From IMG/VR virus record IMGVR_UViG_3300012347_000217, positions 1-46,663 of that record: a DNA stretch of 46,663 nt; one strand, written 5' to 3'. A program made the position numbers and the translations under genes. The notes under the pieces are model-generated. The model worked only from the letters and a program-made list of their open reading frames with translations, was not told the origin of the DNA and searched no databases. Source of the stretch: a virus (lineage: Duplodnaviria > Heunggongvirae > Uroviricota > Caudoviricetes). Position 1 is the first letter of the stretch. Each line of letters opens with the position of its first letter. Positions 445 through 11,174 of this stretch are shown here, in pieces.

Positions 445-560
445 TATAGAAGTATTCTTGGCATAAGTCAAAGCGGGAGAAGAGACCCTAGTGGATGCAT
501 ACGCAAAGGTTTCAGAGCTTGACTCCTCCTAGGCCTGCATTTGAGAGTGCTTCTATATGG
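442..560 (+). ncRNA. Structured RNA closed by a 17-bp stem (CCATAT...ATATGG family)
   Basis: CCATATAGAAGTATTCT (442-458) pairs with AGAGTGCTTCTATATGG (544-560) with 2 G.U pairs. Internal complementarities AGTCAA/TTGACT, CCTAG/CTAGG, ATGCA/TGCAT. Confidence 0.6.
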
Positions 561-633
561 TGCTATAGTTCAGTGGTAGAACACCTCCTTCATACGGAGA
601 CTGTCGGCGGTTCAAGTCCGTCTAGCACTACCA
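559..633 (+). tRNA. trnM: tRNA-Met or Ile2 (CAT)
   Basis: Cloverleaf GGTGCTA/TAGCACT, anticodon loop TTCATAC, T loop TTCAAGT, encoded CCA. Confidence 0.85.
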
Positions 634-797
634 AATATTTTACCGTCCCACTTTAACTCATCCTTGACAAATGGTTTGAGGTCCTTGGTGGGAAATGACA
701 GAGCAAAAGTTTGAACGCACGAATAACTTGCACTTTTAGGAAATGGTCCTTGTGCAACTGCGTATAGAGGAACAACTGCTTCGTCTTCGGTTATCAT
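612..797 (-). CDS. Possible 61-aa antisense protein (MITEDEAVVP...)
   Basis: Internal ATG of the 612..884 ORF. It fills the spacer between two tRNAs and is preceded on the minus strand by CATAAATA. Confidence 0.3.
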   Translation of the reverse strand: MITEDEAVVPLYAVAQGPFPKSASYSCVQTFALSFPTKDLKPFVKDELKWDGKIFGSARRT

Positions 798-808
798 GCA
801 GTATTTAT

Positions 809-883
809 GCCCTAGTAGCTCAGGGGTAGAGCGGCGTCTTGATAAGGCGTAGGTCCGTGGTTCGAAACCACGCTGGGGTACCA
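809..883 (+). tRNA. trnI: tRNA-Ile (GAT)
   Basis: GCCCTAG/CTGGGGT acceptor, loop TTGATAA, TTCGAAA, CCA. Confidence 0.92.
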
Positions 884-887
884 CTTA

Positions 888-895
888 CTAAATAG
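888..895 (+). promoter_or_regulatory. T4-type late-promoter-like ACTAAATA
   Basis: Variant of the T4 late consensus TATAAATA just before the ATG at 900. The same motif precedes the genes at 4843 and 25861. Confidence 0.45.
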
Positions 896-899
896 TTTT

Positions 900-1484
900 A
901 TGGATTCCACATTCGAATATTTTTTTCAAGCAGAGCCATCTAAATCAATGCCCATGTACGCATTGTACGATGTTATGGACAAGCATTTTATGCTGCAATC
1001 AACTGACTACACAGTGTTGCACAAATTAATGATTGCCATGCGCTCTAAGACAAATTTAGAAATGGCAGTGCTTCCTTATAAAGCCGACATGTCTAATGCA
1101 AACATTGAAAAATTCTATATTAAGAATCTACATCCTAAATGGATGGGCGATCTGGTAAACTTTTATAAACAGCCTGATCCCGAAAAGCATCTTGCTAAAT
1201 GGGCAATTGTAGACCCTGAGATGCAAATTGAGTTGACTCAAACACACTTTGATTCATACAAAACTGATTTACAGAAACAATTGTTCTTTTTTTACTATTG
1301 TTTGAGCTTTTTAAAGAAGCACCCATCCGACTTGGTAGAAAAACTAATCACTAACAGTATCTGGTATAGTAAGAACTATAGCGAGGTCGTTGATTGTCTA
1401 CTAAACTCAGTAGCGATACACTCGCAGCAGGATAGGGCAATGTTCCACAAGTTCCTTACACAGACTGGACTATTTTATGAATAA
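900..1484 (+). CDS. Hypothetical protein, coupled to the downstream AsnB-like gene
   Basis: 194-aa ORF; ATGA overlap region with 1477. Confidence 0.75.
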   Translation: MDSTFEYFFQAEPSKSMPMYALYDVMDKHFMLQSTDYTVLHKLMIAMRSKTNLEMAVLPYKADMSNANIEKFYIKNLHPKWMGDLVNFYKQPDPEKHLAKWAIVDPEMQIELTQTHFDSYKTDLQKQLFFFYYCLSFLKKHPSDLVEKLITNSIWYSKNYSEVVDCLLNSVAIHSQQDRAMFHKFLTQTGLFYE

Positions 1485-2679
1485 AATGTTGTTCGTTGAT
1501 CATGTGTTATTAGGAGTAGCTGATACTCAGCTTTATCGTAACGAAATTTACAAAGACTACATGTCCTTGTATCGAAGATTTCCTCCCCCTCCTGGAACCG
1601 AGTTTATGGTCCCGAGGAATATGCCATTGGGGATCAAGAATCCCTGGGGAATAACCGAAAGCAATTTTAAACTTCCTGAATATCGTCAAGTGTCATTTAA
1701 TGATGCAGCTGATTCATTTGGGCAGTCTATTGTTGCGGAAATTGATCAGGGCAAGCAGGTATATATCTGCTGGTCTGGTGGAATTGATAGTACTTGTGCC
1801 GCAGTAAGTGTGCTTAAATTCTTACAGGACAGGCACACAGATCAAGTTACAATAGTAATGTCTGATCGCAGTATACAGGAAAATCCTCAGTTCTATGCAC
1901 AGCATCTGCAGAAATTTAACAGACTAGAATTTAGTCCTTATATGTTTGCAGACATAGATATCAAGAACGCACTGGTGCTTGATGGCGAAGGTGGCGACCA
2001 AATGTTTGGTTCGAGCCTGGCTAATTTTGTGTTCTCGGCGCACCCGGATAAAATCCATGTTCCGTGGCGAACTCAGGTAAATTTTATTACCAAGTTGCTA
2101 CGCAAGCCCTGGGACACTACACAGACATGGAATACATTTTATAACATGGTAGTGGACAGCATTGATTCGTCTGCTCCAGTTGAGACCCTGCAAGACTTTT
2201 TCTGGTGGTTGAACTTTAATTTCAAATTTGATGCAGTAATGACTAGAACGTTACTGTATTACGGAGAAGCAGTACCTGACTGTGATTTTGGGCATTTTGC
2301 TCAGCACTCAAGTCGGCGACTATTTGCAGATAAATTGATGCAGCAGTGGGCTATGTCGGCAGACTCTAACGAAAAGACTCAAGGCGGCAAAAATATCAAA
2401 TTGCCAGCAAAAAAGTATATCTACGAGTTTGATAAAAATGAATACTACTACCGGGAAAAACGCAAAGAGTTAAGTACTCCGATGTTTAATCGCAAATACT
2501 TTGGACTTGACGCAGACTACCAGAGATATAGTCTTGACGACAGGGCTACTCGGCAGAAACTGCGAGAATTATTTTATCCCAATGCAACAGGAAAAATTCC
2601 CTTTGTTGAGGATATAAGTATTCCACACACTGAGCTTATTGCAAATTTTTGGAAAGCGGTCCCGAACACAAAGATGTAA
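1477..2679 (+). CDS. Asparagine-synthase-like PP-loop (adenine nucleotide alpha hydrolase) protein without a glutaminase domain
   Basis: CWSGGIDST PP-loop and LDGEGGDQMFG (compare AsnB SGEGADELFG). Confidence 0.75.
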   Translation: MNKMLFVDHVLLGVADTQLYRNEIYKDYMSLYRRFPPPPGTEFMVPRNMPLGIKNPWGITESNFKLPEYRQVSFNDAADSFGQSIVAEIDQGKQVYICWSGGIDSTCAAVSVLKFLQDRHTDQVTIVMSDRSIQENPQFYAQHLQKFNRLEFSPYMFADIDIKNALVLDGEGGDQMFGSSLANFVFSAHPDKIHVPWRTQVNFITKLLRKPWDTTQTWNTFYNMVVDSIDSSAPVETLQDFFWWLNFNFKFDAVMTRTLLYYGEAVPDCDFGHFAQHSSRRLFADKLMQQWAMSADSNEKTQGGKNIKLPAKKYIYEFDKNEYYYREKRKELSTPMFNRKYFGLDADYQRYSLDDRATRQKLRELFYPNATGKIPFVEDISIPHTELIANFWKAVPNTKM

Positions 2680-2682
2680 TAG

Positions 2683-3216
2683 TTAACCAATTACATCTTT
2701 AAATAGTTCGACTGTTTTGGCCATTGTTATTCTCTTGCCGGATTCTTGCATTAATACAATACTCAAACACCACCGCGGGGTTAGAGGGTTTATGATGTTA
2801 TGAGGTACGCCAACTTGAACTATACTTGGAAACTTAACAGATTGCCGGTGAACTTCGGTAACTTCGGAGTGGTTAAATCCAACATAGCGTGTGCCAATTG
2901 TTGAAGCCGCTGCGGTTTTTACAACACCGGGATTGGCAGAGTACCAACACATGCAGCTTTGGTCGCCGCCCCATATAAAGTTAAGTTTGGTATAGTTGCC
3001 CCCGGCATTGTCAATGTGGATGGGAATTACGCCGCCTGGGCTGGTGTAAAAAAGCTCAGCCAGACCAATTTTTACACCATGCTGCATAAGGAATTGAACT
3101 AACTCAGGATGTAGGTCGCCTAGCGGAATGCGTTGGTGCCATATAGTTTTGTAGGTATTAACATCCTTTATCAGTGGTGTTAACTTTACGTTTAAATCTA
3201 CACAATAATCATTCAT
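2683..3216 (-). CDS. Cupin/Fe(II)-oxygenase-like hypothetical protein
   Basis: IPIHID...VGVPHNI HxD...H pattern in a beta-rich 177-aa ORF. Confidence 0.6.
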   Translation of the reverse strand: MNDYCVDLNVKLTPLIKDVNTYKTIWHQRIPLGDLHPELVQFLMQHGVKIGLAELFYTSPGGVIPIHIDNAGGNYTKLNFIWGGDQSCMCWYSANPGVVKTAAASTIGTRYVGFNHSEVTEVHRQSVKFPSIVQVGVPHNIINPLTPRWCLSIVLMQESGKRITMAKTVELFKDVIG

Positions 3217-3223
3217 AAAGTAG

Positions 3224-3252
3224 TTGACACATAAAGAAATATGCCATACAAT
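3224..3252 (+). promoter_or_regulatory. sigma70 promoter P1 of the tRNA array
   Basis: TTGACA(3224)-17 nt-TACAAT(3247). Confidence 0.85.
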
Positions 3253-3292
3253 AGATACTTAGTTAGAAATTAACTAGGAGCTATAAAAGCAG

Positions 3293-3321
3293 TTGACACA
3301 TAAAGAAATCATTGCTATAAT
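3293..3321 (+). promoter_or_regulatory. sigma70 promoter P2 of the tRNA array
   Basis: TTGACA(3293)-17 nt-TATAAT(3316), perfect consensus. Shares AGTTGACACATAAAGAAAT with P1. Confidence 0.9.
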
Positions 3322-3347
3322 AGCTACATGTTAAGAAATTAACAAAC

Positions 3348-3358
3348 GTTCTTTAAAA
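3348..3358 (+). promoter_or_regulatory. rrn-type boxA antitermination-like element
   Basis: GTTCTTTAAAA after promoter P2 and a small hairpin (TGTTAAGAAATTAACA). Confidence 0.6.
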
Positions 3359-3394
3359 ATTTGTTTTGAATCAAAATAAATTTCTAAATAACTG

Positions 3395-3423
3395 TTGACA
3401 GCAAATGAAATGTTTGCTACAAT
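3395..3423 (+). promoter_or_regulatory. sigma70 promoter P3 of the tRNA array
   Basis: TTGACA(3395)-17 nt-TACAAT(3418) with an AT-rich upstream tract. Confidence 0.85.
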
Positions 3424-3457
3424 AGAAGCTTAGTTAGACATTGTGCTAACTGACAAA

Positions 3458-3468
3458 GTTCTTTAAAA
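3458..3468 (+). promoter_or_regulatory. rrn-type boxA antitermination-like element
   Basis: Second GTTCTTTAAAA, after P3 and hairpin TTAGTTAG...CTAACTGA. Confidence 0.6.
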
Positions 3469-3505
3469 CTGATAACGTATAAGAAGTTCTTATACACATA
3501 CACAC

Positions 3506-3594
3506 AAATGCTTAGGCCAGGCAGATGTAGCGGATTACAGCCCGATAGCTTTCGGGTAGGCAGGTTCAATTCCTGTGAGTGCGTTTAGATATGG
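3506..3594 (+). ncRNA. tRNA-like leader RNA (T-arm, ends in ATATGG)
   Basis: T-arm GCAGG-TTCAATT-CCTGT, hairpin CCCGA/TCGGG, acceptor-like AAATGC/GCGTTT. Confidence 0.45.
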
Positions 3595-3601
3595 TTATTA
3601 T

Positions 3602-3678
3602 GGGTTTGTAGTTTAGCGGCTAAAACATCACGCTTTTAACGTGTAAGACCGTGAGTTCGAATCTCACCAGACCCACCA
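3602..3678 (+). tRNA. trnK: tRNA-Lys (TTT)
   Basis: GGGTTTG/CAGACCC, loop CTTTTAA, TTCGAAT, CCA. Confidence 0.92.
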
Positions 3679-3684
3679 AGTTTT

Positions 3685-3742
3685 AGAATCCATTCAGCAA
3701 TAAAAAAATACTTCGTCTATAGTAAAAAAGCGGATTCTGTTG
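3685..3742 (+). ncRNA. CAGCAA-scaffold RNA copy 1
   Basis: AGAATCC/GGATTCT stem, ATTCAGCAA, A-rich linkers around a small hairpin, tail GTTG. Confidence 0.7.
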
Positions 3743-3749
3743 TTATTAT

Positions 3750-3826
3750 GCCCCCTTACTCCAATTGGTAGAGAGAGCGGTCTTAGAAGCCGTAAAGTCT
3801 CAGTTCGAATCTGAGAGAGGGCACCA
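3750..3826 (+). tRNA. trnL: tRNA-Leu (TAG), short variable loop
   Basis: GCGGT-CTTAGAA-GCCGT, 5-nt variable region, TTCGAAT, A73, CCA. Confidence 0.85.
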
Positions 3827-3875
3827 AATCTCGCCTTGATTGATGGCGTACAATGAGATAAATTATCAATCGACT

Positions 3876-3950
3876 GGTCTTAAAGTGTTCATGGACGCAC
3901 GTAGCACTGTCACTGCTAAAGAAGGGGATCGTTACCCCTTAAGACCGCCA
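3876..3950 (+). tRNA. trnD: tRNA-Asp (GTC)
   Basis: GGTCTTA/TAAGACC, loop CTGTCAC, G73, atypical T loop ATCGTTA. Confidence 0.85.
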
Positions 3951-3957
3951 AGATTTT

Positions 3958-4031
3958 ATCCGGTTAGCTCAAAGGTAGAGCACTGGCTTGATAAGCCATA
4001 GACAGAGGATCGTTACCTCTACCGGATACCA
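3958..4031 (+). tRNA. trnI: tRNA-Ile (GAT), second copy
   Basis: ATCCGGT/ACCGGAT, loop TTGATAA, T loop ATCGTTA, CCA. Confidence 0.85.
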
Positions 4032-4035
4032 GTTT

Positions 4036-4136
4036 AGAATAGGTTCAGCAAAAATTTACACATGCGAATGGTTCGCAATTTTCATTCAAAGAAAACTTTG
4101 TGGGTTCAATTCCCACTGTAAAAAAACTATTCTGCT
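4036..4136 (+). ncRNA. CAGCAA-scaffold RNA copy 2, enclosing a full cloverleaf with anticodon TCA
   Basis: AGAATAG/CTATTCT stem. Inside: TTTACA/TGTAAA, TGCG-AATGGTT-CGCA, TTTTC-ATTCAAA-GAAAA, GTGGG-TTCAATT-CCCAC. No CCA. Confidence 0.75.
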
Positions 4137-4143
4137 ATATAAT

Positions 4144-4229
4144 GGAGATGCCGCCGTAATGGTATGGCAAGGGACTGTAAATCCCCCGCTCTTCGGAGCT
4201 AATAGGTTCGATCCCTATCATCTCCACCA
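4144..4229 (+). tRNA. trnY: tRNA-Tyr (GTA)
   Basis: GGAGATG/CATCTCC, loop CTGTAAA, long variable arm, CCA. Confidence 0.92.
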
Positions 4230-4233
4230 ATTT

Positions 4234-4308
4234 GGGCTGTTAGTGATAATGGTAGCACAGGGCGTTTGCAACGCTTTAGCAGGAGTTCGATTCTCCTACG
4301 GTCCACCA
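4234..4308 (+). tRNA. trnA: tRNA-Ala (TGC)
   Basis: G3.U70 pair, loop TTTGCAA, CCA. Confidence 0.92.
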
Positions 4309-4315
4309 AGTTTTT

Positions 4316-4389
4316 GCCCCATTAGTTAAATGGTAGAACATCGGTTTTGTAATCCGAGGATAGCAGTTCGATTCTGTTATGGGGCACCA
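4316..4389 (+). tRNA. trnT: tRNA-Thr (TGT)
   Basis: GCCCCAT/ATGGGGC, loop TTTGTAA, CCA. Confidence 0.92.
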
Positions 4390-4491
4390 AGTTTAGTAGA
4401 ATGTATGGGTTGACCACAACGCCACGTGCCAAGGTAAGACATTCGAAGTGTAAGTAGCAGGTTTGGTCATGCTTACACACTAATTAGTTAT

Positions 4492-4565
4492 GCGGGATTA
4501 GTTTAATGGTAAAACTACAGATTTCCAATCTGTTGTTGAGAGTTCGATTCTCTCATCCCGCTCCA
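4492..4565 (+). tRNA. trnG: tRNA-Gly (TCC)
   Basis: GCGGGAT/ATCCCGC, loop TTTCCAA, U73, CCA. Confidence 0.92.
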
Positions 4566-4570
4566 GTTAT

Positions 4571-4637
4571 GCGTTGAAGTATGAACTGCACGAAGTACCC
4601 CTTCGTGATGCCTGTAGAAATCAGGCTCGACGCTCCA
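4571..4637 (+). ncRNA. D-armless tRNA-like RNA with a Gly-type acceptor end
   Basis: GCGTTGA/TCGACGC-T-CCA, 11-nt D replacement loop, CACGAAG/CTTCGTG arm, GCCTG-TAGAAAT-CAGGC. Confidence 0.65.
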
Positions 4638-4642
4638 GTTAT

Positions 4643-4716
4643 CTCGGATTAGTTTAGTGGTAAAACTCGTGGTTTGGGACCATGGGTCGGAAGTTCGATT
4701 CTTCCATCCGAGACCA
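4643..4716 (+). tRNA. trnP: tRNA-Pro (TGG)
   Basis: CTCGGAT/ATCCGAG, loop TTTGGGA, CCA. Confidence 0.92.
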
Positions 4717-4721
4717 GTTTT

Positions 4722-4787
4722 AGAATCCATTCAGCAAAACAAAACATTTCAAAACTTTTATCTTTGAAAAGAAAAACGGATTCTGCT
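4722..4787 (+). ncRNA. CAGCAA-scaffold RNA copy 3 with a Lys(TTT)-like anticodon loop
   Basis: AGAATCC/GGATTCT; inner TTTCAAA-a-CTTTTAT-c-TTTGAAA; tail GCT. Confidence 0.7.
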
Positions 4788-4842
4788 ATTTTGAATATTC
4801 ATTTTTACTAAATAAAAGTATAACAACTTCAGTTAATCGAAA

Positions 4843-5178
4843 ATGAATAAATGCAATTATCACCTATGTAACAATGAGACTAAAACAAAGTTCTGTTGTG
4901 TTAAGTGTAAAAATAAATTTCACGTTATCAAACGTAGAAATGTCTTAAAAGAAGAAGCCATCAAATATAAAGGTGGTAAATGCGAAGTCTGTGGATATGA
5001 TAAATGTGGTTCTGCTTTAGAATTTCATCATAAAGATCCTACAGAAAAAGATTTCGGTATCTCACAGGACGGTAATACTAGACCTTGGGAAACAGTGAAA
5101 TCTGAATTAGATAAATGTATCATGTTGTGTGCAAATTGTCATAGAGAAGAACATGAGAGATTGAGAAATATTCCCTAA
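4843..5178 (+). CDS. HNH endonuclease (zinc-binding)
   Basis: CEVCGY...LEFHH...LCANCHREEH; the stop codon overlaps the 5' end of tRNA-Asn. Confidence 0.85.
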   Translation: MNKCNYHLCNNETKTKFCCVKCKNKFHVIKRRNVLKEEAIKYKGGKCEVCGYDKCGSALEFHHKDPTEKDFGISQDGNTRPWETVKSELDKCIMLCANCHREEHERLRNIP

Positions 5179-5246
5179 TAGCTCAGTGGTAGAGCAAAGC
5201 ACTGTTAATGCTTGGGTCGGAGGTTCGAGCCCTCCTTGGGGAGCCA
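5172..5246 (+). tRNA. trnN: tRNA-Asn (GTT)
   Basis: TCCCTAA/TTGGGGA, loop CTGTTAA, G73, CCA. Confidence 0.92.
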
Positions 5247-5251
5247 ATTAT

Positions 5252-5329
5252 TGTGGTAGAGCAAGCATGGTGTAGGCGCTTCGCTGTTAACGAAGAATGA
5301 GCTAGGTTCGATCCCTAGTACCACAGCCA
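5252..5329 (+). tRNA. trnN: tRNA-Asn (GTT), divergent second copy
   Basis: TGTGGTA/TACCACA, loop CTGTTAA, G73, CCA. Confidence 0.88.
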
Positions 5330-5333
5330 GTTA

Positions 5334-5394
5334 AGAATCGGTTCAGCAAACATATAGCTAACTTTGGATGTCTAGCGACAAAAACGATTCTGTT
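5334..5394 (+). ncRNA. CAGCAA-scaffold RNA copy 4
   Basis: AGAATCG/CGATTCT; inner imperfect hairpin around CTTTGGA (Gln TTG-like loop); tail GTT. Confidence 0.68.
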
Positions 5395-5401
5395 ATATAA
5401 T

Positions 5402-5477
5402 GGTTCAGTAGCATAGCGACTAATGCAACACCTTCATACGGTGTCTATCGTGAGTTTGAGTCTCACCTGAACTACCA
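5402..5477 (+). tRNA. trnM: tRNA-Met or Ile2 (CAT)
   Basis: GGTTCAG/CTGAACT, loop TTCATAC, T loop TTTGAGT, CCA. Confidence 0.82.
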
Positions 5478-5483
5478 ATTAAT

Positions 5484-5560
5484 CCGTCTGTAGCACAACT
5501 GAATAATGTCCTGGTCTACGAAGCCATGGGGTGGGGGTTTGAATCCCTCCGGACGGACCA
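5484..5560 (+). tRNA. trnR: tRNA-Arg (ACG)
   Basis: CCGTCTG/CGGACGG, loop CTACGAA, T loop TTTGAAT, CCA. Confidence 0.85.
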
Positions 5561-5577
5561 ACTAATAATCACTTACT

Positions 5578-6195
5578 ATGAATTACATAAAAGAAATATT
5601 TGATCCAGTAAATGAGCAACATGCAAAAGACATTTGTTTATCTCCTGATAGAAATGATCCTAAGAAGTTTCAAAAAGAAACTGATTTTCTGATTAAGTTT
5701 TTACATGACAATGGTTATGCTACACCAGAAAAAGATATTGCTGATTTTGGTTGTGGTGTTGGACGTGTAAGTAAGCAACTGATTGAACAGTTAAAATGTA
5801 AGGTTGTTGGGTTTGATATCTCTAAGAAGATGATACATACAGCAATCAATTATATCGAGAATGATGATTTCGACTTTTACCATTATGGTGTGAGTGTCGA
5901 AAACAAATGCAAAATTAAATTTGATACAGTAATCGCTTCTTTGGTTCTCCAGCATAGCGAACACCCTATATACGATATCAATTTTATCGACAGTATTATG
6001 AAACCTAATGGTGTATTAGTATTAGTCAATGAGAAGGAGCGTTATGTTCCTACTGAGATTGTAGATGGTGCCGTAAAATGGCATGATGATGGTATTGTTA
6101 TAGTAGATGAAGTGTCGAAGGTATTTGACCTAGTCGGTGAATACAACTACTATACAAGACCTGATAAATGTTTAACAGTTTGGAGAAAAAGATGA
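5578..6195 (+). CDS. Class I SAM-dependent methyltransferase
   Basis: IADFGCGVGR motif I, VGFDIS, FDTVIASLVLQH. Confidence 0.88.
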   Translation: MNYIKEIFDPVNEQHAKDICLSPDRNDPKKFQKETDFLIKFLHDNGYATPEKDIADFGCGVGRVSKQLIEQLKCKVVGFDISKKMIHTAINYIENDDFDFYHYGVSVENKCKIKFDTVIASLVLQHSEHPIYDINFIDSIMKPNGVLVLVNEKERYVPTEIVDGAVKWHDDGIVIVDEVSKVFDLVGEYNYYTRPDKCLTVWRKR

Positions 6196-6359
6196 GTGAT
6201 GGTGGAAAAGGTTCTAGTCCTCGACCATTTAGTATTTCACAGCAGGAGTATGACAATCGCTGGGACAATATTTTTAGTCGTGACTTGAAAGATGAGAAAG
6301 AAGATAAAGTGACACGTAACAATGAGGAAACTCAAGAGGTGTTAAATCAGAATAAATGA
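6192..6359 (+). CDS. Small hypothetical phage protein (MSDGGKGSSPRP...)
   Basis: Internal ATG of the 6168 ORF, ATGA-coupled to the methyltransferase stop. Confidence 0.65.
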   Translation: MSDGGKGSSPRPFSISQQEYDNRWDNIFSRDLKDEKEDKVTRNNEETQEVLNQNK

Positions 6360-6434
6360 GTCGGTAGTTCCAATTGGCAGAACGGCGGATTCCAAATCCG
6401 TTAGTTGGGGGTTCGAGTCCCTCCCGGCTCGCCA
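6358..6434 (+). tRNA. trnW: tRNA-Trp (CCA)
   Basis: GAGTCGG/CCGGCTC, loop TTCCAAA, G73, CCA. Confidence 0.92.
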
Positions 6435-6454
6435 TAATTAGAAAGGTGATTGAT

Positions 6455-6943
6455 ATGAGTAAATTCGACATTCAAGAAGTTAAGCAGTTCATTTTGGATC
6501 AAGGTCCAGATACACGTGTTTATCTTGGTGCTGACTCTGAGCGAATCAGAGTAAACGGTGTATGGTATGCCGACTATGCACTTGCTGTCGTTGTTCATAT
6601 CGACGGCCGCCACGGTTGTAAAATCTTCGGATATGTTCACCGTGAAATTGATTATGACCACAAGAAAAGTAAACCTGCTATGCGTCTGATGACAGAAGTA
6701 TACAAGGTTTCAGAATTGTTCCACGAAATGCAAGATGTATTGGAAGACCGTCATGTTGAAGTCCACCTAGACTTGAACAAAAACGAAATTCATGGTTCTT
6801 CATGTGTGGTACAGCAAGCGATTGGCTATATAAAGGGCACATGTAACATGACCCCAATGGTCAAGCCAAATGCACCGGCTGCTTCTTTCTGTGCAGACAG
6901 ATTGAAACGTATTCTTGCAGAACAAGAATTGTTGGCAGCGTAA
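6455..6943 (+). CDS. RNase H-like YkuK/DUF458-family protein
   Basis: Start at MSKFDIQ after AAGGTG; YLGADS, RLMTEV, EVHLD, AASFCADR acidic motifs. The ORF-track start at 6374 lies inside tRNA-Trp. Confidence 0.75.
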   Translation: MSKFDIQEVKQFILDQGPDTRVYLGADSERIRVNGVWYADYALAVVVHIDGRHGCKIFGYVHREIDYDHKKSKPAMRLMTEVYKVSELFHEMQDVLEDRHVEVHLDLNKNEIHGSSCVVQQAIGYIKGTCNMTPMVKPNAPAASFCADRLKRILAEQELLAA

Positions 6944-7013
6944 AGAGTTTGTTCGAACTAGCAGGAGTGCTTCCGTTCTCGTCCTGCGAATATAAAAAAT
7001 ATAACGGAGCCAT

Positions 7014-7087
7014 GCGGGTATGATGTAAAGGTAGCCTGTGACCTTGCCAAGGTTAGTGTGGGAGTTCGATTCTCCCTACCCGCTCCA
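7014..7087 (+). tRNA. trnG: tRNA-Gly (GCC)
   Basis: GCGGGTA/TACCCGC, loop TTGCCAA, U73, CCA. Confidence 0.92.
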
Positions 7088-7107
7088 CATTTTATGAAAG
7101 TTTTAGT

Positions 7108-7350
7108 ATGACGTATATTCCATTGAACGGCAACGTAATCGTTGAACGTGTTGCACCAGTTAAAGTATCTTCTGGTGGTATCATCTTGCAATCATCCGTT
7201 GAACCTGATAAAGCAAAAGTTATTGCTACTGCATCAGATGAAGTTAAGATTGATGACTTGCTATTGATTAATTGGAATAAGTGTGCTAAGATTGGTGAAG
7301 ACACCTTCCGTATTCATATTACGGACTGCATTGCTGTCTTCACAGAATAA
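7108..7350 (+). CDS. groES: GroES-like co-chaperonin
   Basis: PLNGNVIVER...SSGGIILQ...AKVIA pattern, 80 aa. Confidence 0.85.
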   Translation: MTYIPLNGNVIVERVAPVKVSSGGIILQSSVEPDKAKVIATASDEVKIDDLLLINWNKCAKIGEDTFRIHITDCIAVFTE

Positions 7351-7351
7351 T

Positions 7352-7426
7352 GCCTTGTTAACTCAGCGGTAGAGTGTCTCCCTTACAAGGAGAAGGTCGG
7401 CGGTTCGATCCCGTCACAAGGTACCA
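7352..7426 (+). tRNA. trnV: tRNA-Val (TAC)
   Basis: GCCTTGT/ACAAGGT, loop CTTACAA, CCA. Confidence 0.92.
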
Positions 7427-7430
7427 ACAT

Positions 7431-7504
7431 GCTCTTATAGTACAGTGACAGTACATACCCTTGGTACGGGTAGGACCTGAGTTTGATTCTCGGTAAGAGC
7501 ACCA
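7431..7504 (+). tRNA. trnT: tRNA-Thr (GGT)
   Basis: GCTCTTA/TAAGAGC, loop TTGGTAC, T loop TTTGATT, CCA. Confidence 0.88.
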
Positions 7505-7516
7505 AGATTTCTTAGT

Positions 7517-7589
7517 GTTGGCCATCGCCAAGTGGTAAGGCCGAAGGTTGTGATTCTTCTATGCGTGGGTTCGATCCCCACTGGTCAAC
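7517..7589 (+). tRNA. trnH: tRNA-His (GTG), CCA not encoded
   Basis: G-1:C73 extended acceptor GTTGGCCA/TGGTCAAC, loop TTGTGAT; followed by CCT. Confidence 0.85.
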
Positions 7590-7605
7590 CCTAAGAAATT
7601 TTAAT

Positions 7606-7681
7606 GCCTTTGTAGCTCAGGTGGTAGAGCAGTAGACTGAAAATCTATGTGTCGGCGGTTCGACTCCGTCCAAAGGCACCA
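7606..7681 (+). tRNA. trnF: tRNA-Phe (GAA)
   Basis: GCCTTTG/CAAAGGC, loop CTGAAAA, CCA. Confidence 0.93.
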
Positions 7682-7805
7682 TATATAAACTCTCTGAGTG
7701 ACTACACTGGAGTACATCAAGTAAGAGCAAAGTCGACCACGCTCCGAACGTTGCCAGGAAGTAGGGTCACCGTGGATTCAAGTACCGCAGAGAGTTTTTA
7801 TATGG
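7679..7805 (+). ncRNA. Structured RNA closed by an 18-position stem (CCATAT...ATATGG family)
   Basis: 7679-7696 pairs with 7788-7805 with one mismatch; internal GTGAC/GTCAC and CTGG/CCAG helices; degenerate T-arm-like segment. Confidence 0.65.
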
Positions 7806-7878
7806 GCAGTAAACTTTGACGATGAAGTCCGGCCTCTTAAGCCGAGAGAAGACAGTTTGAATCTGTCACCGCCCACCA
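7804..7878 (+). tRNA. trnK: tRNA-Lys (CTT)
   Basis: GGGCAGT/ACCGCCC, loop CTCTTAA, T loop TTTGAAT, CCA. Confidence 0.82.
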
Positions 7879-7883
7879 ATTTT

Positions 7884-8011
7884 GGGAACGTGATGTAATG
7901 GTAGCATAGCATAGCAAAAAGTCAATTCTGTAAAGAATTGTTTCCGCAACACCTATAGCTCTAACTCTGTAAAAGTTCTTGTGCGTGGTTCGAATCCCGC
8001 CGTTCCCACCA
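7884..8011 (+). ncRNA. tRNA-Tyr(GTA)-like RNA with a 53-nt extra arm between the D and anticodon arms
   Basis: GGGAACG/CGTTCCC-A-CCA, D arm, insert 7910-7962, AACT-CTGTAAA-AGTT, T loop TTCGAAT. Confidence 0.65.
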
Positions 8012-8016
8012 ATTTT

Positions 8017-8112
8017 AGGATGACTACAGCAAACAATTTTTAAGGTTCGATTCCTTATTTTGCCACCAAAACTCGGCAGAGTCGCTCATCGGGAGCACCA
8101 AATCATCCTGCT
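8017..8112 (+). ncRNA. CAGCAA-scaffold RNA copy 5: circularly permuted tRNA mimic (YrlA Y-RNA-like)
   Basis: AGGATGA/TCATCCT stem, then T-arm, loop-closed acceptor TTTTGCC-ACCAAAACTC-GGCAGAG, then D-arm GCTC-ATCGG-GAGC. Confidence 0.75.
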
Positions 8113-8119
8113 ATTCAAT

Positions 8120-8196
8120 GCCCTCGTAGCCCAATTGGTAGAGGCAGCAGTTTCAAACACTGTACAGTGTGAGTTCGAATCTCACCGTGGGCACCA
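8120..8196 (+). tRNA. trnL: tRNA-Leu (CAA), short variable loop
   Basis: GCAGT-TTCAAAC-ACTGT, 5-nt variable region, A73, CCA. Confidence 0.82.
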
Positions 8197-8208
8197 TCGG
8201 AGATATAA

Positions 8209-8373
8209 ATGAAATCACCAGTACAACGTGGAGTTCCAGGTAATGTAAAAATGCGTGGAAGAAAAACAAAACTAATGTCTTGCTTATGTTGCGAAATGAT
8301 TAATTTCAAATGGTCTGAACGTTGGAAAGAAGCAAAGAAAGAAATTTCTGGTAACAATACAAAAGAGTATTGA
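8209..8373 (+). CDS. 54-aa basic hypothetical protein (MKSPVQRGVPG...)
   Basis: GGAG ribosome-binding site at about 8199, open frame to TGA at 8371; shorter than any ORF in the track. Confidence 0.55.
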   Translation: MKSPVQRGVPGNVKMRGRKTKLMSCLCCEMINFKWSERWKEAKKEISGNNTKEY

Positions 8374-8398
8374 CATATTACACTTAATTTGATACAAT
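8370..8398 (+). promoter_or_regulatory. sigma70 promoter
   Basis: TTGACA-17 nt-TACAAT, upstream of scaffold copy 6, the oxygenase, scaffold copy 7 and the TROVE-like gene. Confidence 0.85.
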
Positions 8399-8426
8399 TG
8401 CGTCATCGTGATTGTTAAAGAGTTTT

Positions 8427-8612
8427 AGAATAGGTTCAGCAAAACATGTTTAACGGGTAGCAATACCCGCTACGAATCGCTGATATCTTTTTCCAATAGC
8501 TGGAGCCTGTATGGGCTTTGAAGGTTATTCGAATGCCTAACGGCAAGGATATCAGATAAGTGAGTTTCGATTTCTCACTGACAGAAACAAAAAGAAGAAA
8601 ACTATTCTGCTG
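8427..8612 (+). ncRNA. CAGCAA-scaffold RNA copy 6 with a large multi-hairpin cargo
   Basis: AGAATAG/CTATTCT; CGGGTA-GCAA-TACCCG, CTGATATC/GATATCAG multibranch, T-arm-like GTGAG/CTCAC; tail GCTG. Confidence 0.7.
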
Positions 8613-8637
8613 ATTGTAGGTTAACTTGAGGAGTTTA

Positions 8638-9228
8638 ATGAATATCATCACTAACAAGACACCATTCGAATATATTGTAATTGATGATATGTATTCGGAA
8701 GATGAACTCAAATTAATTTGGCGTGAAATTGATTTCTTGACACCTAAGATGAAAACACCTGCTCAAACAGGTTCAGCTATTGATGCATCAAACAACAGTT
8801 ACAAAAAGAATGCTAATGGATTATTTTTGGATGCTGTATATTCGGATCGTAGTGTGTCAGATTTACTGACATTGAACCGAAAATTGTTTGATGAAGAAAT
8901 TATCAATGAAGGTAAGAAATTACATCCAATTTTTGGATTCATGGATTTTTGTAACAGTGATACGACATTGTTAAATCATTATACGAATGGTGGCTATTAT
9001 GCACCACATAGAGATGTAGCAGTGTTATCTTCGGTAACATTCTTTATTGATGATGTGGGATTTACTGGAGGCCAATTCGAATTTACTGATTATAATGTTC
9101 AGATTGAACAGAAGAATAATAGAACTGTACTTTTTCCAAGTACCGTGAGACACTCTGTAACACAAGTTCAGGTCCCACATAATGGAAAAGGTCGCTATTC
9201 GATGGCACAATTTTTGATGATGAAATAA
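8638..9228 (+). CDS. 2OG-Fe(II) oxygenase (prolyl-hydroxylase-like)
   Basis: HRD...H...RYS motifs; GAGGAG ribosome-binding site before ATG 8638. Confidence 0.85.
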   Translation: MNIITNKTPFEYIVIDDMYSEDELKLIWREIDFLTPKMKTPAQTGSAIDASNNSYKKNANGLFLDAVYSDRSVSDLLTLNRKLFDEEIINEGKKLHPIFGFMDFCNSDTTLLNHYTNGGYYAPHRDVAVLSSVTFFIDDVGFTGGQFEFTDYNVQIEQKNNRTVLFPSTVRHSVTQVQVPHNGKGRYSMAQFLMMK

Positions 9229-9255
9229 AAGAATATAACTATTCTGTGGATTTTT

Positions 9256-9319
9256 AGGTTAAGTTCAGCAAATAAAAAGCATTCAACTTGTAATTGAAAA
9301 CGCAAAAATTAACCTGTTG
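9256..9319 (+). ncRNA. CAGCAA-scaffold RNA copy 7 with a Thr(TGT) anticodon stem-loop, in the leader of the TROVE-like gene
   Basis: AGGTTAA/TTAACCT; inner TTCAA-CTTGTAA-TTGAA; tail GTTG; AAGGAG follows at 9326. Confidence 0.72.
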
Positions 9320-9337
9320 TTTTAAAAGGAGTATATT

Positions 9338-10768
9338 ATGACAACATTTGTAGAAGCCGTGAAGAACCAAGAAGCCCGTACCACTAACGGTATGAAGGCA
9401 CGTAAGTCGACCGCTAACGCTGTGGTTGATTTGTATTACAATGCGGGTGCATCCCGTGGTAAAAACATTCTGCCAGCATTTACTGCTGCTTATGTTGAAA
9501 ACAAAGAGTTGGCACTCCGTGTTGCCGCATGGCTACGTGACGCACGTGGTGGTGCTGGTGAACGCAAGTTGTTCCGTGATATTCTAGTACACCTAGAAAA
9601 TACCGATCCAGATGCCGCTTTGGCATTGCTGGCAAAAGTACCTGAACTTGGCCGTTGGGACGATATCTTCGTCTTCAAGACCAAGTTTATGAAAGATGCT
9701 GCATACACACTATTGGGTGACGCTCTGCGTGAACGCAATGGTTTGGCAGCTAAGTGGACTCCTCGCCAAGGTCCAGTTGCGGCAGAAATCCGTACATTCT
9801 TCGGAATGTCACCAAAGTTCTACCGTAAGTCTTTGGTCAATATGACCAATGTTGTTGAAACACAAATGTGTGCGAAGGATTGGAACTCAATCAACTTCTC
9901 TCACGTTCCATCTGTTGCAGCAGCACGTTACAAGAAGGCATTTAACCGTAACACAACAGCATACGCAACATATGTTGCAGCACTTGTAAAAGGTGATGTT
10001 GCTGGTGTTAAAGTGAATGCTGGCGCAGTTTACCCATATGATGTATTGAAGGGTCGTATCGGCTCTTACCGTACATCATACGATAAGACTGAAATGGACT
10101 TGATCCAAAAGCAATGGGAAGCACTACCAAACTTCGTTGGTGATGCAAGCATCCTACCATTGGTTGACACCTCTGGTTCTATGACTTGCCCAGCAGGTGG
10201 TTACCAATCCAAGTCAGGCTTGTCCTGCATGGAAGTTGCAGTCTCATTGGGATTGTACTTGGCTGATAAGAACAAGGGTGCGTTCAAGGACACATTCTTG
10301 ACCTTCTCATCTAAGCCTCGTCTGTTGCACTTGAAGGGCAATATCAACGAGAAGATTGCTCAAATGTGTACCGGTGAAGTTGCTAATACCAACCTCAACG
10401 CCGCATTGGATAAGATTCTTGAAGTGGCAGTACAGCACAAAGTAGCTCAAGCAGATATGCCAGCTATGTTGTTGATCCTGTCAGATATGCAATTTGATGG
10501 TGCTGTTGGTGGTCGTGATGACTCTGCAATGGAAATGATTGCACGTAAGTACAATGCAGCGGGTTACACCGTTCCAAAGGTGACTTACTGGAACTTGAAC
10601 GCTGCTTATGGCAACGCTCCAGTGAAGTTTGACACACATGGTACTGCATTGGTGTCTGGGTTCTCGCCAGCCGTGGTTAAGCCATTGCTTGCTGCTGACC
10701 TAGAAGTCTTCACACCAGAATCTGTGATGATGAAAACCATCATGGATGACCGTTACAAAGTCTTGTAA
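9338..10768 (+). CDS. TROVE/DUF2828-like helical domain plus vWA domain (Ro60-like RNA-binding protein candidate)
   Basis: Helical N-terminus with RDARGGAGER and GRWDD; C-terminal vWA MIDAS LVDTSGSM and ILSDMQFD; 476 aa; strong ribosome-binding site. Confidence 0.7.
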   Translation: MTTFVEAVKNQEARTTNGMKARKSTANAVVDLYYNAGASRGKNILPAFTAAYVENKELALRVAAWLRDARGGAGERKLFRDILVHLENTDPDAALALLAKVPELGRWDDIFVFKTKFMKDAAYTLLGDALRERNGLAAKWTPRQGPVAAEIRTFFGMSPKFYRKSLVNMTNVVETQMCAKDWNSINFSHVPSVAAARYKKAFNRNTTAYATYVAALVKGDVAGVKVNAGAVYPYDVLKGRIGSYRTSYDKTEMDLIQKQWEALPNFVGDASILPLVDTSGSMTCPAGGYQSKSGLSCMEVAVSLGLYLADKNKGAFKDTFLTFSSKPRLLHLKGNINEKIAQMCTGEVANTNLNAALDKILEVAVQHKVAQADMPAMLLILSDMQFDGAVGGRDDSAMEMIARKYNAAGYTVPKVTYWNLNAAYGNAPVKFDTHGTALVSGFSPAVVKPLLAADLEVFTPESVMMKTIMDDRYKVL

Positions 10769-10773
10769 CGCCT

Positions 10774-10800
10774 ATGAGGATTCGAAAGAGTCCTCATTTT
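10774..10800 (+). terminator. Intrinsic terminator-like hairpin
   Basis: ATGAGGATTC-GAAA-GAGTCCTCAT-TTT just after the stop codon. Confidence 0.65.
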
Positions 10801-10920
10801 AGAATACATTAATTTGGTGCTAATAAACGAGATAACACCATTTGTGACAAGAAGTTGCTGTCAAAGACGATAAATTCCTTCTCAGGATTTGCAACAGTCG
10901 GATAATGTATTCTAAAATGA
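10794..10920. ncRNA. Structured element closed by an 18-bp perfect inverted repeat
   Basis: TCATTTTAGAATACATTA / TAATGTATTCTAAAATGA enclosing three hairpins. Confidence 0.5.
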
Positions 10921-10922
10921 AT

Positions 10923-11006
10923 GCGGGTATGATGAAATTGGTAGTACATAGGAGACTTAAAATCTCCCGCTTCGGCGTCCCGGTTCGAGTCCGGGTGCCC
11001 GCACCA
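10923..11006 (+). tRNA. trnL: tRNA-Leu (TAA), long variable arm
   Basis: GCGGGTA/TGCCCGC, GGAGA-CTTAAAA-TCTCC, CCA. Confidence 0.92.
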
Positions 11007-11012
11007 GATGAT

Positions 11013-11087
11013 GCCTTGGTAGCTTAATGGTAAAGCAGGGAACTCATAATTCCTTGAGTGGGAGTTCAATTCTCTCCCAAGGCACCA
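11013..11087 (+). tRNA. trnM: tRNA-Met/Ile2 (CAT)
   Basis: GCCTTGG/CCAAGGC, loop CTCATAA, CCA. Confidence 0.9.
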
Positions 11088-11100
11088 TATAAATAATTAT

Positions 11101-11174
11101 TGCGGATTAGTGAAACGGTATCACAAAGGACTCATAATCCTTAATTCCTTGTTCGAATCTTGGGTCCGCAACCA
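11101..11174 (+). tRNA. trnM: tRNA-Met/Ile2 (CAT) with a weak T stem
   Basis: TGCGGAT/GTCCGCA, loop CTCATAA, T stem CCTTG/CTTGG with two U.U mismatches. Confidence 0.75.

What the first reader, a model, noticed from the sequence alone, without database searches (positions are those of the whole stretch)
3685..9319. Seven-copy covarying RNA scaffold: AG-N5 stem / CAGCAA / variable cargo / G(C,T)T
The closing stems are AGAATCC/GGATTCT (x2), AGAATAG/CTATTCT (x2), AGAATCG/CGATTCT, AGGATGA/TCATCCT and AGGTTAA/TTAACCT. The sequence differs but all pair 7/7, which is compensatory change. Each has a 3-nt spacer then invariant CAGCAA, A-rich linkers, a T-rich 5' flank and a tail TG(C/T)T that can pair with AGCA. 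Five copies start within about 10 nt of a tRNA-type CCA end, so tRNA processing would release their 5' ends. Copy length ranges from about 60 to 190 nt. I cannot assign it to a named RNA family.
Basis: seen in the sequence. Interest (0 to 1): 0.88.

Follow-up and report, generated by a model that had tools for sequence, protein, structure and literature searches.

The report
Phage Ro-like protein's handle-bearing small RNAs
The seven repeats are real small-RNA genes that join one constant stem-plus-CAGCAA "handle" to imitations of tRNA parts; the same RNA family sits beside a Ro60-shaped protein gene in very different phages, so they look like an uncatalogued cousin of the Ro60/Y-RNA particle.

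Summary
Seven copies on the + strand (3685-9318) each have a perfect 7-bp closing stem, a 3-nt spacer, invariant CAGCAA, A-rich linkers and a G(C/U)U tail. There are none elsewhere in the 177-kb phage genome.

The element is far from private to this phage. I collected 256 distinct copies with 45 different stems. Stem covariation is strong: 100% of cells are paired and 6 of 7 pairs change on both sides.

The copies track one gene, window 9338-10768 (Pfam DUF2828+DUF7788). Its AlphaFold model matches Ro60/TROVE structures from end to end. In 80 loci fetched through that protein, 224 copies lie on the gene's strand and 0 on the other. The pairing recurs in KVP40, Felix O1-type phages including Bas63, Listeria A511, a mycobacteriophage, a cyanophage and gut-bacterial contigs. 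T4, T5 and S-PM2 lack the gene and gave no clear RNA match.

The variable cargo imitates tRNA parts: anticodon arms, a D-arm, a rearranged tRNA body and a whole tRNA(UCA).

Best reading: Y-RNA-like partner RNAs of a divergent Ro60. Binding and function are untested. The Bas63 homologue is a published counter-defence gene.

Rfam has no family for it. The only near match is Dictyostelium Class I RNA, just below threshold. Earlier agents of this scan reported the same family on other DNA.

The parts
3685..3741 (+). Copy 1: stem AGAATCC/GGATTCT, CAGCAA, short hairpin cargo, GTT tail. Starts 6 nt after the CCA of tRNA(UUA).
   Evidence: 64.4 bits with model R1; Rfam RF01414 32.3 bits
4036..4136 (+). 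Copy 2: stem AGAATAG/CTATTCT. The cargo is a complete cloverleaf tRNA with a UCA anticodon (4054-4124) and no encoded CCA.
   Evidence: (tRNA model 39.6 bits)
4722..4787 (+). Copy 3: stem AGAATCC/GGATTCT. The cargo is a 7-bp hairpin whose loop holds CUUUUAU, like the anticodon loop of tRNA-Lys(UUU).
   Evidence: RF01414 32.9 bits
5334..5394 (+). Copy 4: stem AGAATCG/CGATTCT. The cargo is a GCUA/UAGC hairpin with a UUGG-containing loop (D-arm-like, my reading). It is conserved in relatives that carry other stems.
8017..8112 (+). Copy 5: stem AGGATGA/TCATCCT. The cargo is a T-arm, an acceptor helix closed by a loop that contains ACCA, then a D-arm. This is a circularly rearranged tRNA body without an anticodon arm (YrlA topology).
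   Evidence: the same cargo type occurs in finno, S13, Wilder and an Akkermansia contig
8427..8611 (+). Copy 6: stem AGAATAG/CTATTCT. The cargo is a 139-nt multi-stem region with a T-arm-like hairpin. A strong sigma-70-type promoter at 8370-8398 lies just upstream.
9256..9318 (+). Copy 7: stem AGGTTAA/TTAACCT. The cargo is a 5-bp stem with the loop CUUGUAA (anticodon-arm mimic, UGU). It ends 20 nt before the start codon of the Ro-like gene.
   Evidence: 69.8 bits
9338..10768 (+). Gene for a Ro60-like ring protein (Pfam DUF2828 + DUF7788, vWA domain with an invariant MIDAS DxSxS motif). It is the proposed protein partner of the seven RNAs.
3224..3423 (+). Three tandem strong sigma-70-type promoter matches (11-12 of 12) at the head of the tRNA/RNA cluster that holds copies 1-5.
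8370..8398 (+). Sigma-70-type promoter match (TTGACA-17-TACAAT with TG). The inferred start is about 20 nt before copy 6, so the 5' arm would be transcribed.

Best explanation
The seven elements are genes for small non-coding RNAs of a large, uncatalogued phage family.

Each RNA has two modules. The constant 'handle' is a 7-8 bp stem formed by the two ends (sequence free apart from a conserved G:C near its base), a 3-nt spacer, single-stranded CAGCAA, A-rich linkers and a G just after the stem. The variable module copies a piece of tRNA: an anticodon arm, a D-arm, a rearranged tRNA body, or a whole tRNA.

They are transcribed early from sigma-70-type promoters together with the phage tRNAs. 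They are probably cut out by the enzymes that mature tRNA ends (inferred).

The handle is most likely the docking site for the Ro60-shaped ring protein encoded at 9338-10768. The complex would then be a divergent Ro60/Y-RNA particle (inferred from strict co-occurrence; binding not shown). By analogy with Y RNAs, the tRNA-like module would tether or decoy proteins that recognise tRNA, such as host tRNA-cleaving defence nucleases, modification or repair enzymes, or exonucleases. This would serve the phage against host defence (speculative). The one experimental hint is that the Bas63 homologue of the protein counters the Ppl defence system.
For: Structure:
- Of 217 distinct 5' halves (TT-N7-N3-CAGCAA), 161 have a perfect 7-bp Watson-Crick partner followed by GYT within 330 nt. 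The shuffled-arm control gives 1, and the opposite strand gives 0.
- On 137 distinct model-aligned copies, 100% of 956 cells pair and 6 of 7 pairs change on both sides. The covariation score is 0.635, against 0.146 in shuffles and at most 0.111 for slid partners.

Link to the protein:
- 74 of 80 loci fetched through the protein alone carry the RNA, with 224 copies on the gene's strand and 0 on the other. The six without have almost no DNA upstream of the gene.
- The model gives 189 hits at E<=0.001 in 1.2 Mb, all on the gene's strand.
- In seven whole cultured-phage genomes, every hit lies on the gene's strand and within about 10 kb of it.
- T4, T5 and S-PM2 lack the gene and have no hit better than E=0.09.
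- The same pairing is found in A511, mycobacteriophage Wilder, KVP40, Felix O1-type phages and gut-bacterial contigs.

Protein fold:
- The AF2 model has pLDDT 90.
- The top 13 PDB hits and the top 5 Swiss-Prot hits are all Ro60.

Cargo:
- 75 of 114 short copies have a 5-bp stem with a 7-nt loop carrying U33 and R37, against 8.7 in shuffles.
- Copy 2 holds a cloverleaf tRNA and copy 5 a rearranged tRNA body.

Transcription:
- Promoter matches lie upstream of the 5' arms.

Function hint:
- Bas63 g130 counters Ppl (PMC11482910). bas63_0130 is 38.6% identical to the window protein and is followed by four handle RNAs.
Against: - No transcript ends, abundance or protein binding have been measured for any member. 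Co-location does not prove binding.
- The handle differs from the known Ro60-binding motif (GNCGAA / GGUCCGA, PMC4201824), and the stem is short for a Y RNA.
- Copies 1-5 lie 1.2-5.6 kb from the gene, inside the tRNA array, so a role in tRNA-transcript handling cannot be separated from a role with the protein by sequence alone.
- The Bas63 phenotype was shown for the protein only. How it relates to tRNA mimicry is unknown.
- The anticodon-loop likeness could be partly a composition effect, although the shuffle control argues against this.
Confidence: 0.7

Rival explanations
1. They are cis-acting spacers of the polycistronic tRNA transcript. In this reading they are self-folding insulators or processing and stability signals that help neighbouring tRNAs fold and be cut out, with no link to the Ro-like protein.
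For: Five copies start 4-6 nt after a CCA end and four end 8 nt before a tRNA 5' end. In T4-like relatives most copies lie in tRNA arrays.
Against: - In Listeria phage A511, three copies stand in tandem in the leader of the Ro-like gene with no tRNA between them.
- In mycobacteriophage Wilder, three copies follow the gene before a terminator.
- tRNA-rich phages without the gene (T4, T5, S-PM2) gave no clear match.
- An invariant CAGCAA kept across Gram-negative, Gram-positive and actinobacterial phages points to a specific ligand.
Confidence: 0.08
2. They are cis-regulatory leader elements. The Ro-like protein would bind them on its own mRNA to control its own synthesis, rather than using them as free partner RNAs.
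For: Copy 7 ends 20 nt before the start codon. In 24 of 74 related loci the nearest copy ends 10-29 nt before the gene. In A511 all three copies lie in the leader.
Against: Most copies are hundreds to thousands of bases from the gene, among tRNAs. In Wilder, Bas63 and finno they lie downstream of the gene. Elaborate tRNA-like cargo is not needed for feedback control.
Confidence: 0.1
3. They are DNA-level features. Either the TAGAAT/TAGGAT in the 5' arm is a -10 box with the CA of CAGCAA at -1/+1, or the inverted repeats are ends of a mobile or recombination cassette.
For: The spacing from T+AGRAT to the A of CAGCAA fits a sigma-70 promoter (my reading). Inverted repeats flanking variable cargo resemble miniature mobile elements.
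Against: - The arm varies freely at the supposed -10 positions and is always matched by a distant complement.
- Other clades use AGACC, TGGAC or AAGGC arms that do not resemble -10 boxes.
- A few copies keep the stem through G:U pairs, which works only in RNA of this strand.
- The strand bias is absolute.
- Strong promoters lie upstream of the arms.
- No target duplications were seen.
Confidence: 0.03

Closest known systems
Bacterial and phage Ro60 (Rsr) with Y RNAs, especially YrlA (Rfam RF02553; Chen et al. 2014, PMC4201824; Thermus phage phiLo Ro60 with Yrl1/Yrl2, PMC12135203)
   Same: - Small RNAs are encoded on the same strand next to a ring-shaped HEAT-repeat plus vWA protein.
- The two RNA ends pair to form a stem beside a short conserved single-stranded motif near the 5' end.
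- The second module is variable, and in at least one RNA per genome it is a tRNA body with T-arm, closed acceptor and D-arm in YrlA order (copy 5).
- Several RNAs occur per locus.
   Different: - The protein belongs to Pfam DUF2828/DUF7788, not TROVE, with only 12-16% identity to solved Ro60s.
- The handle is CAGCAA next to a 7-8 bp stem, not GNCGAA / GGUCCGA in a long bulged helix.
- No copy reaches even a weak score with RF02553.
- There are up to seven copies here.
- Many cargos are bare anticodon arms or whole tRNAs, which are not described for Y RNAs.
- Binding is untested.
Dictyostelium Class I RNAs (Rfam RF01414; Kjellin et al. 2021, PMC7919456)
   Same: - A short covarying stem joins the 5' and 3' ends, with a conserved G at its 5' base and a C-U-G at the 3' end.
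- A conserved motif ending in CAGCAA lies at the same distance from the stem (Dictyostelium CCUUACAGCAA; A511 UCUAACAGCAAUUA).
- An A-rich variable interior follows, and sizes are 42-65 nt.
- RF01414 is the only non-tRNA Rfam model that picks the copies out: 32-33 bits in the window, 40.4 and 39.6 bits in relatives, 23 bits in A511.
   Different: - Every score is below the gathering score of 41.5.
- Class I RNAs are eukaryotic, each with its own promoter element about 60 nt upstream. They bind the RRM protein Rnp1A and were reported as unique to dictyostelids.
- No DUF2828-type protein link is known there, and I could not test it.
- The phage RNAs often carry long tRNA-like cargo.
Stable RNAs of unknown function in phage tRNA clusters (T5 RNAI and RNAIII as annotated in NC_005859; T4 species 1 and 2 RNAs from my own knowledge)
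   Same: These are small structured non-tRNA RNAs embedded between phage tRNA genes and presumably released by tRNA processing.
   Different: T4 and T5 lack the DUF2828 gene and gave no hit with the handle model. They are a different family.

Membership tests
Rfam RF01414 Dicty_Class_I_RNA | Score at or above the curated gathering score (41.5 bits) | tested here: not met
   Window copies score 32.3 and 32.9 bits. The best relatives score 40.4 and 39.6 bits. A511 copies score 23.1 and 19.6 bits.
Rfam RF01414 Dicty_Class_I_RNA | Short stem joining the 5' and 3' ends, structure conserved but not sequence | tested here: met
Rfam RF01414 Dicty_Class_I_RNA | Conserved 11-nt motif CCUUACAGCAA next to the 5' strand of the stem (PMC7919456) | tested here: inconclusive
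   CAGCAA is invariant and at the same distance from the stem. The five positions before it vary (AUU, GUU or UAA spacers). That gives 9 of 11 matches in copies 1 and 3 and in A511.
Rfam RF01414 Dicty_Class_I_RNA | Own upstream promoter element (DUSE) about 60 nt before the gene, in dictyostelid genomes | tested here: not met
   The copies are phage genes inside polycistronic bacterial-type units driven by sigma-70-type promoters.
Y RNA / YrlA (Rfam RF02553) | Score at or above the gathering score (69 bits) | tested here: not met
   No hit on any copy. The only weak hit in the window (24.2 bits) spans two tRNA genes.
Y RNA / YrlA (Rfam RF02553) | Encoded near a Ro60 orthologue and on the same strand | tested here: met
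   Copy 7 lies 20 nt and copy 6 about 730 nt upstream of the gene. Family-wide, 224 copies are on the gene's strand and 0 on the other. The protein is Ro60-like by fold only.
Y RNA / YrlA (Rfam RF02553) | Conserved Ro60-binding motif GNCGAAN0-1G near the 5' end (PMC4201824) | tested here: not met
   The conserved motif is CAGCAA in all 256 distinct copies.
Y RNA / YrlA (Rfam RF02553) | tRNA-like domain (T-arm, closed acceptor, D-arm) in at least one RNA of the locus | tested here: met
   The copy 5 fold shows it. The same layout is seen in finno, S13, Wilder and an Akkermansia contig.
Y RNA / YrlA (Rfam RF02553) | Physical association with the Ro60 protein | not testable with these tools
   Needs immunoprecipitation or gel-shift experiments.
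Ro60 / TROVE proteins (for the gene at 9338-10768) | Match to the Pfam TROVE domain by sequence | tested here: not met
   Only DUF7788 and DUF2828 match at E<=0.01. There is no PDB sequence hit at E<=10.
Ro60 / TROVE proteins (for the gene at 9338-10768) | HEAT-repeat ring followed by a vWA domain with a MIDAS motif | tested here: met
   The model has pLDDT 90. It gives full-length Foldseek matches to 1yvr, 2i91, 2nvo and 9l5y at TM 0.38-0.63 and E down to 5e-9. Swiss-Prot Ro60 proteins are the top five hits. D277, S279, S281, T351 and D383 are invariant in 58 sequences.

The most novel reading that the evidence does not exclude
The Class I RNAs of dictyostelid social amoebae, so far regarded as unique to that lineage and of unknown mechanism, may be relatives (by descent or transfer) of this phage handle-RNA family.

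Both share a G-N5 stem, CAGCAA at the same distance from it, an A-rich interior and a C-U-G 3' end. The Dictyostelium covariance model picks out the phage RNAs and nothing else in the phage DNA that I scanned with it.

If this holds, Class I RNAs might work as partner RNAs of a Ro-like ring protein, and the phage family would give them a mechanism to test.
Probability: 0.15. Interest if true: 0.9.

Novelty: new variant of a known kind. Interest (0 to 1): 0.8.

Why it matters
Ro60 with its Y RNAs is a classic RNA-surveillance particle, and its bacterial and phage roles are still poorly understood. Four points follow from this work.

- **A much larger second branch.** The DUF2828 Ro-like protein family has thousands of members: 5,791 clusters at 50% identity and 711 cultured phage genomes. 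It has its own RNA partner family, which is not in Rfam and which I did not find in the literature I could search.
- **A modular build.** The RNAs join one handle to interchangeable tRNA parts, from bare anticodon arms to whole tRNAs. This suggests a display or decoy platform aimed at proteins that read tRNA. That fits the current picture of phage-host conflict over tRNA cleavage.
- **Experimental access.** One family member (Bas63 g130) already has a counter-defence phenotype whose RNA partner was only guessed at. The four candidate RNAs are now named, so the system can be tested directly in E. coli.
- **Annotation.** These RNAs are currently missed, called pseudo-tRNAs, or overlaid with spurious small ORFs.

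Tried and rejected
- **Close DNA relatives:** a near-identity search against cultured phages found only tRNA-sized matches.
- **Rfam at gathering thresholds:** only tRNAs were reported.
- **Exact pattern scan of IMG/VR:** most of the 115 stretches were chance single matches. About 20 carried real arrays.
- **First pairing test that allowed G:U without the tail:** too permissive, with 25% chance hits. I replaced it with stricter tests.
- **Promoter reading (TAGAAT as -10, CA as the start):** considered and rejected. See the rival explanations.
- **Tail pairing with AGCA:** rejected, because the tail is not conserved beyond its G.
- **Five fragmentary contigs with RNAs but no DUF2828 hit:** uninformative, since they are only 4-38% complete.
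- **DUF2828 literature search:** only incidental plant and tardigrade mentions.
- **Search for a Dictyostelium DUF2828 protein:** the AlphaFold cluster search hides organisms, Swiss-Prot shows none, and the Atlas search shows only viral clusters. The question stays open.
- **Papers not available:** the supplements of Chen 2014, the 2020 Annual Review on Ro60 and Avesson 2011 are not held.
- **PF04308 RNase H-like gene as the universal partner:** rejected. It is a neighbour only in T4-like lineages.
- **Complex prediction:** not used, because the partner in question is RNA.

Full report
**What is in the window.** The window is part of a complete 177,309-bp virus record. Earlier notes of this scan describe it as an uncultivated aquatic T4-like phage. 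Positions 559-11174 on the + strand hold a dense cluster of about 26 tRNA genes mixed with small ORFs.

Each has these features:
- a T-rich lead-in;
- a 7-nt arm starting with AG;
- three bases of spacer;
- invariant CAGCAA;
- an A-rich stretch, variable cargo, then a second A-rich stretch;
- the perfect complement of the arm;
- a GTT or GCT tail.

Shuffled windows give about one hit under looser rules. The rest of the genome has no further copy. All seven minimum-free-energy folds close with the proposed stem.

**The element is a large family with real covariation.**
- An exact-pattern scan of IMG/VR followed by a structural scan recovered multi-copy arrays in many uncultured phages.
- Among 1,441 CAGCAA sites, 73 had a perfect 7-mer partner plus GYT tail. 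With shuffled arms the count was 0.
- In loci fetched without reference to the RNA, 161 of 217 distinct 5' halves had such a partner. The shuffled-arm control gave 1 and the opposite strand gave 0.
- Altogether I collected 256 distinct copies with 45 different arms, 49-260 nt long.
- On a model-derived alignment of 137 distinct copies, every one of 956 cells is a standard pair and six of seven pairs change on both sides. The covariation score is 0.635, against 0.146 for shuffles and at most 0.111 for slid partners. That alignment is fitted to the structure, so the unbiased counts are the primary evidence.
- Only the second pair (G:C) never varies.

**The RNAs follow one protein gene.**
- Copy 7 ends 20 nt before an ORF (9338-10768) that matches Pfam DUF2828 and DUF7788.
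- tblastn showed this gene in 12 of the roughly 20 pattern-derived loci that carry the RNA.
- I then fetched 80 IMG/VR loci through the protein alone. Of these, 74 carry the RNA. There are 224 copies on the gene's strand and none on the other, with 222 upstream and 2 downstream. In the six loci without the RNA, the gene begins within about 420 bases of the start of the fetched DNA.
- The covariance model R1 gives 189 hits at E<=0.001 in 1.2 Mb, all on the gene's strand.

**The pairing spans distant phage groups.** The protein is found in 711 cultured phage records. I checked these:

| Phage or source | Handle RNAs found |
|---|---|
| Synechococcus phage BUCT-ZZ01 | yes |
| Vibrio phages nt-1 and KVP40 | yes |
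| Cronobacter phage S13 | yes |
| Felix O1-type phage finno | four copies |
| Listeria phage A511 | three tandem copies in the leader of gp57 |
| Mycobacterium phage Wilder | three tandem copies between the 'Ro-like RNA binding protein' gene and a terminator |

- In whole-genome searches of these seven phages, every hit lies on the gene's strand within about 10 kb of it.
- T4, T5 and S-PM2 are rich in tRNA genes but lack the protein. They gave nothing better than E=0.09.
- In 80 bacterial and archaeal genome contigs that encode the protein (31-62% identity to the window protein), 123 perfect copies lie on the gene's strand against 17 chance-level hits on the other. Lineage-specific arms such as AAGRCNC occur in gut Clostridia and Akkermansia contigs.

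**What the protein is.**
- No PDB sequence matches it.
- An AlphaFold2 model built on 58 diverse homologues has mean pLDDT 90.
- Its 13 best PDB matches are all Ro60/TROVE structures aligned over the full length: Xenopus, human, Deinococcus Rsr and Thermus phage phiLo.
- The top five Swiss-Prot matches are Ro60 proteins.
- The vWA MIDAS residues are invariant.
- It is therefore a divergent Ro60-like ring protein. Some phage annotations already call it 'Ro-like' or 'RNA-binding protein'.

**What the cargo is.**
- Of 114 short copies, 75 carry a 5-bp stem with a 7-nt loop that has U at position 2 and a purine at position 6, typically CU-NNN-AA. This is the signature of an anticodon loop. Shuffled cargo gives 8.7.
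- In this window, copies 3 and 7 are of this kind.
- Copy 4 carries a conserved 4-bp hairpin with a UUGG-containing loop that I read as D-arm-like.
- Copy 5 holds a T-arm, an acceptor helix closed by a loop containing ACCA, and a D-arm. This is the order found in YrlA.
- Copy 2 encloses a full cloverleaf with anticodon UCA.
- Copy 6 holds a 139-nt multi-stem cargo with a T-arm-like hairpin.
- The rearranged-tRNA cargo recurs in finno, S13, Wilder and an Akkermansia contig.

**Expression.** Three strong sigma-70-type promoter matches precede the cluster (3224-3423). Another (8370-8398) lies just upstream of copy 6. The 5' arms therefore lie inside the predicted transcripts. Release by RNase P and tRNA 3' processing is inferred from the 4-6 nt and 8 nt distances to tRNA ends.

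**Comparison with what is known.**
- The logic matches Ro60 with Y RNAs. Those RNAs are encoded beside the protein gene, are closed by a terminal stem next to a short conserved motif, and include at least one tRNA-like RNA (PMC4201824). Phage phiLo Ro60 binds two upstream Y-like RNAs (PMC12135203).
- The defining features differ, however. The conserved motif is CAGCAA rather than GNCGAA, the copies do not match RF02553, and the protein is not TROVE by sequence.
- The survey by Chen et al. covered only genomes annotated with TROVE proteins, so it would have missed this branch.
- The only non-tRNA Rfam model that recognises the copies is Dictyostelium Class I RNA, at 32-40 bits against a threshold of 41.5. 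That class has the same architecture (PMC7919456). I treat this as a resemblance, not membership.

**Function.**
- A published screen found that gene 130 of phage Bas63 is needed to overcome the Ppl defence system. The authors noted that its product is Ro60-like by structure and lies just upstream of the tRNA genes, and they guessed that some 'tRNAs' might be Y RNAs (PMC11482910).
- Bas63 is Escherichia phage JohannRWettstein.
- Its bas63_0130 is 38.6% identical to the window protein over the full length. Four handle RNAs follow it, and two of them overlap small ORFs annotated on the opposite strand.
- This is the only experimental anchor. It concerns the protein, not the RNAs.

**Limits.** Nothing here shows that the RNAs accumulate, where their ends lie, that the protein binds them, or what the tRNA-like modules engage.

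**Earlier notes of this scan.** Other agents reported the same family on other DNA. I reached the main points independently before reading those notes. I took from them only the lead to the Bas63 paper, and I then checked that paper myself.

Noticed in passing
window 3602-3678: A tRNA gene with anticodon UUA, which would read the UAA stop codon. It scores 65.6 bits with the tRNA model and encodes its CCA end. With the UCA-anticodon cloverleaf inside copy 2, the phage carries two suppressor-type tRNA bodies, although its ORFs read normally under code 11.
   Followed up: partly
window 7886-8013: A tRNA-like gene with a 7-bp acceptor stem, D-arm, T-arm and CCA end, but about 55 extra bases where the anticodon arm should be. 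Neither ARAGORN (with its intron option) nor Rfam calls it.
   Followed up: partly
window 7685-7808: A 124-nt structured region between tRNA-Phe and another tRNA. A 9-bp stem (AACUCUCUG with its complement) closes it, and several hairpins lie inside. It has no CAGCAA and no Rfam match.
   Followed up: partly
window 4566-4642 and 4393-4491: Two more non-tRNA structured spacers. The first folds as a cloverleaf-like RNA with a 7-bp acceptor-type stem followed by UCCA, but it is not recognised as a tRNA.
   Followed up: partly
window 6455-6943: A gene of Pfam PF04308 (RNase H-like). It neighbours the Ro-like gene in 21 of 80 IMG/VR loci and in BUCT-ZZ01, nt-1, S13 and KVP40. It was not found in the fetched Felix O1-type (finno), A511 or Wilder loci, nor in the bacterial contigs. 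It may be a lineage-specific accessory of the system.
   Followed up: partly
L294 2730-3004 (Bas63, MZ501086.1 82748-83022): Two small 'hypothetical protein' ORFs annotated on the minus strand overlap two of the four handle RNAs. They are probably annotation artefacts.
   Followed up: partly
L212 (phage T5, NC_005859 30284-30500): T5 carries annotated stable RNAs of unknown function (RNAI and RNAIII) in its tRNA cluster. They do not match the handle model, so they are a different and still unexplained family.
   Followed up: no
L206 9896-10138 (Cronobacter phage S13): Two oversized 'tRNA' annotations (121 and 113 nt, one labelled tRNA-OTHER) lie a few hundred bases downstream of the Ro-like gene and immediately before a 135-nt handle RNA. 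They may be further tRNA-mimic RNAs.
   Followed up: no
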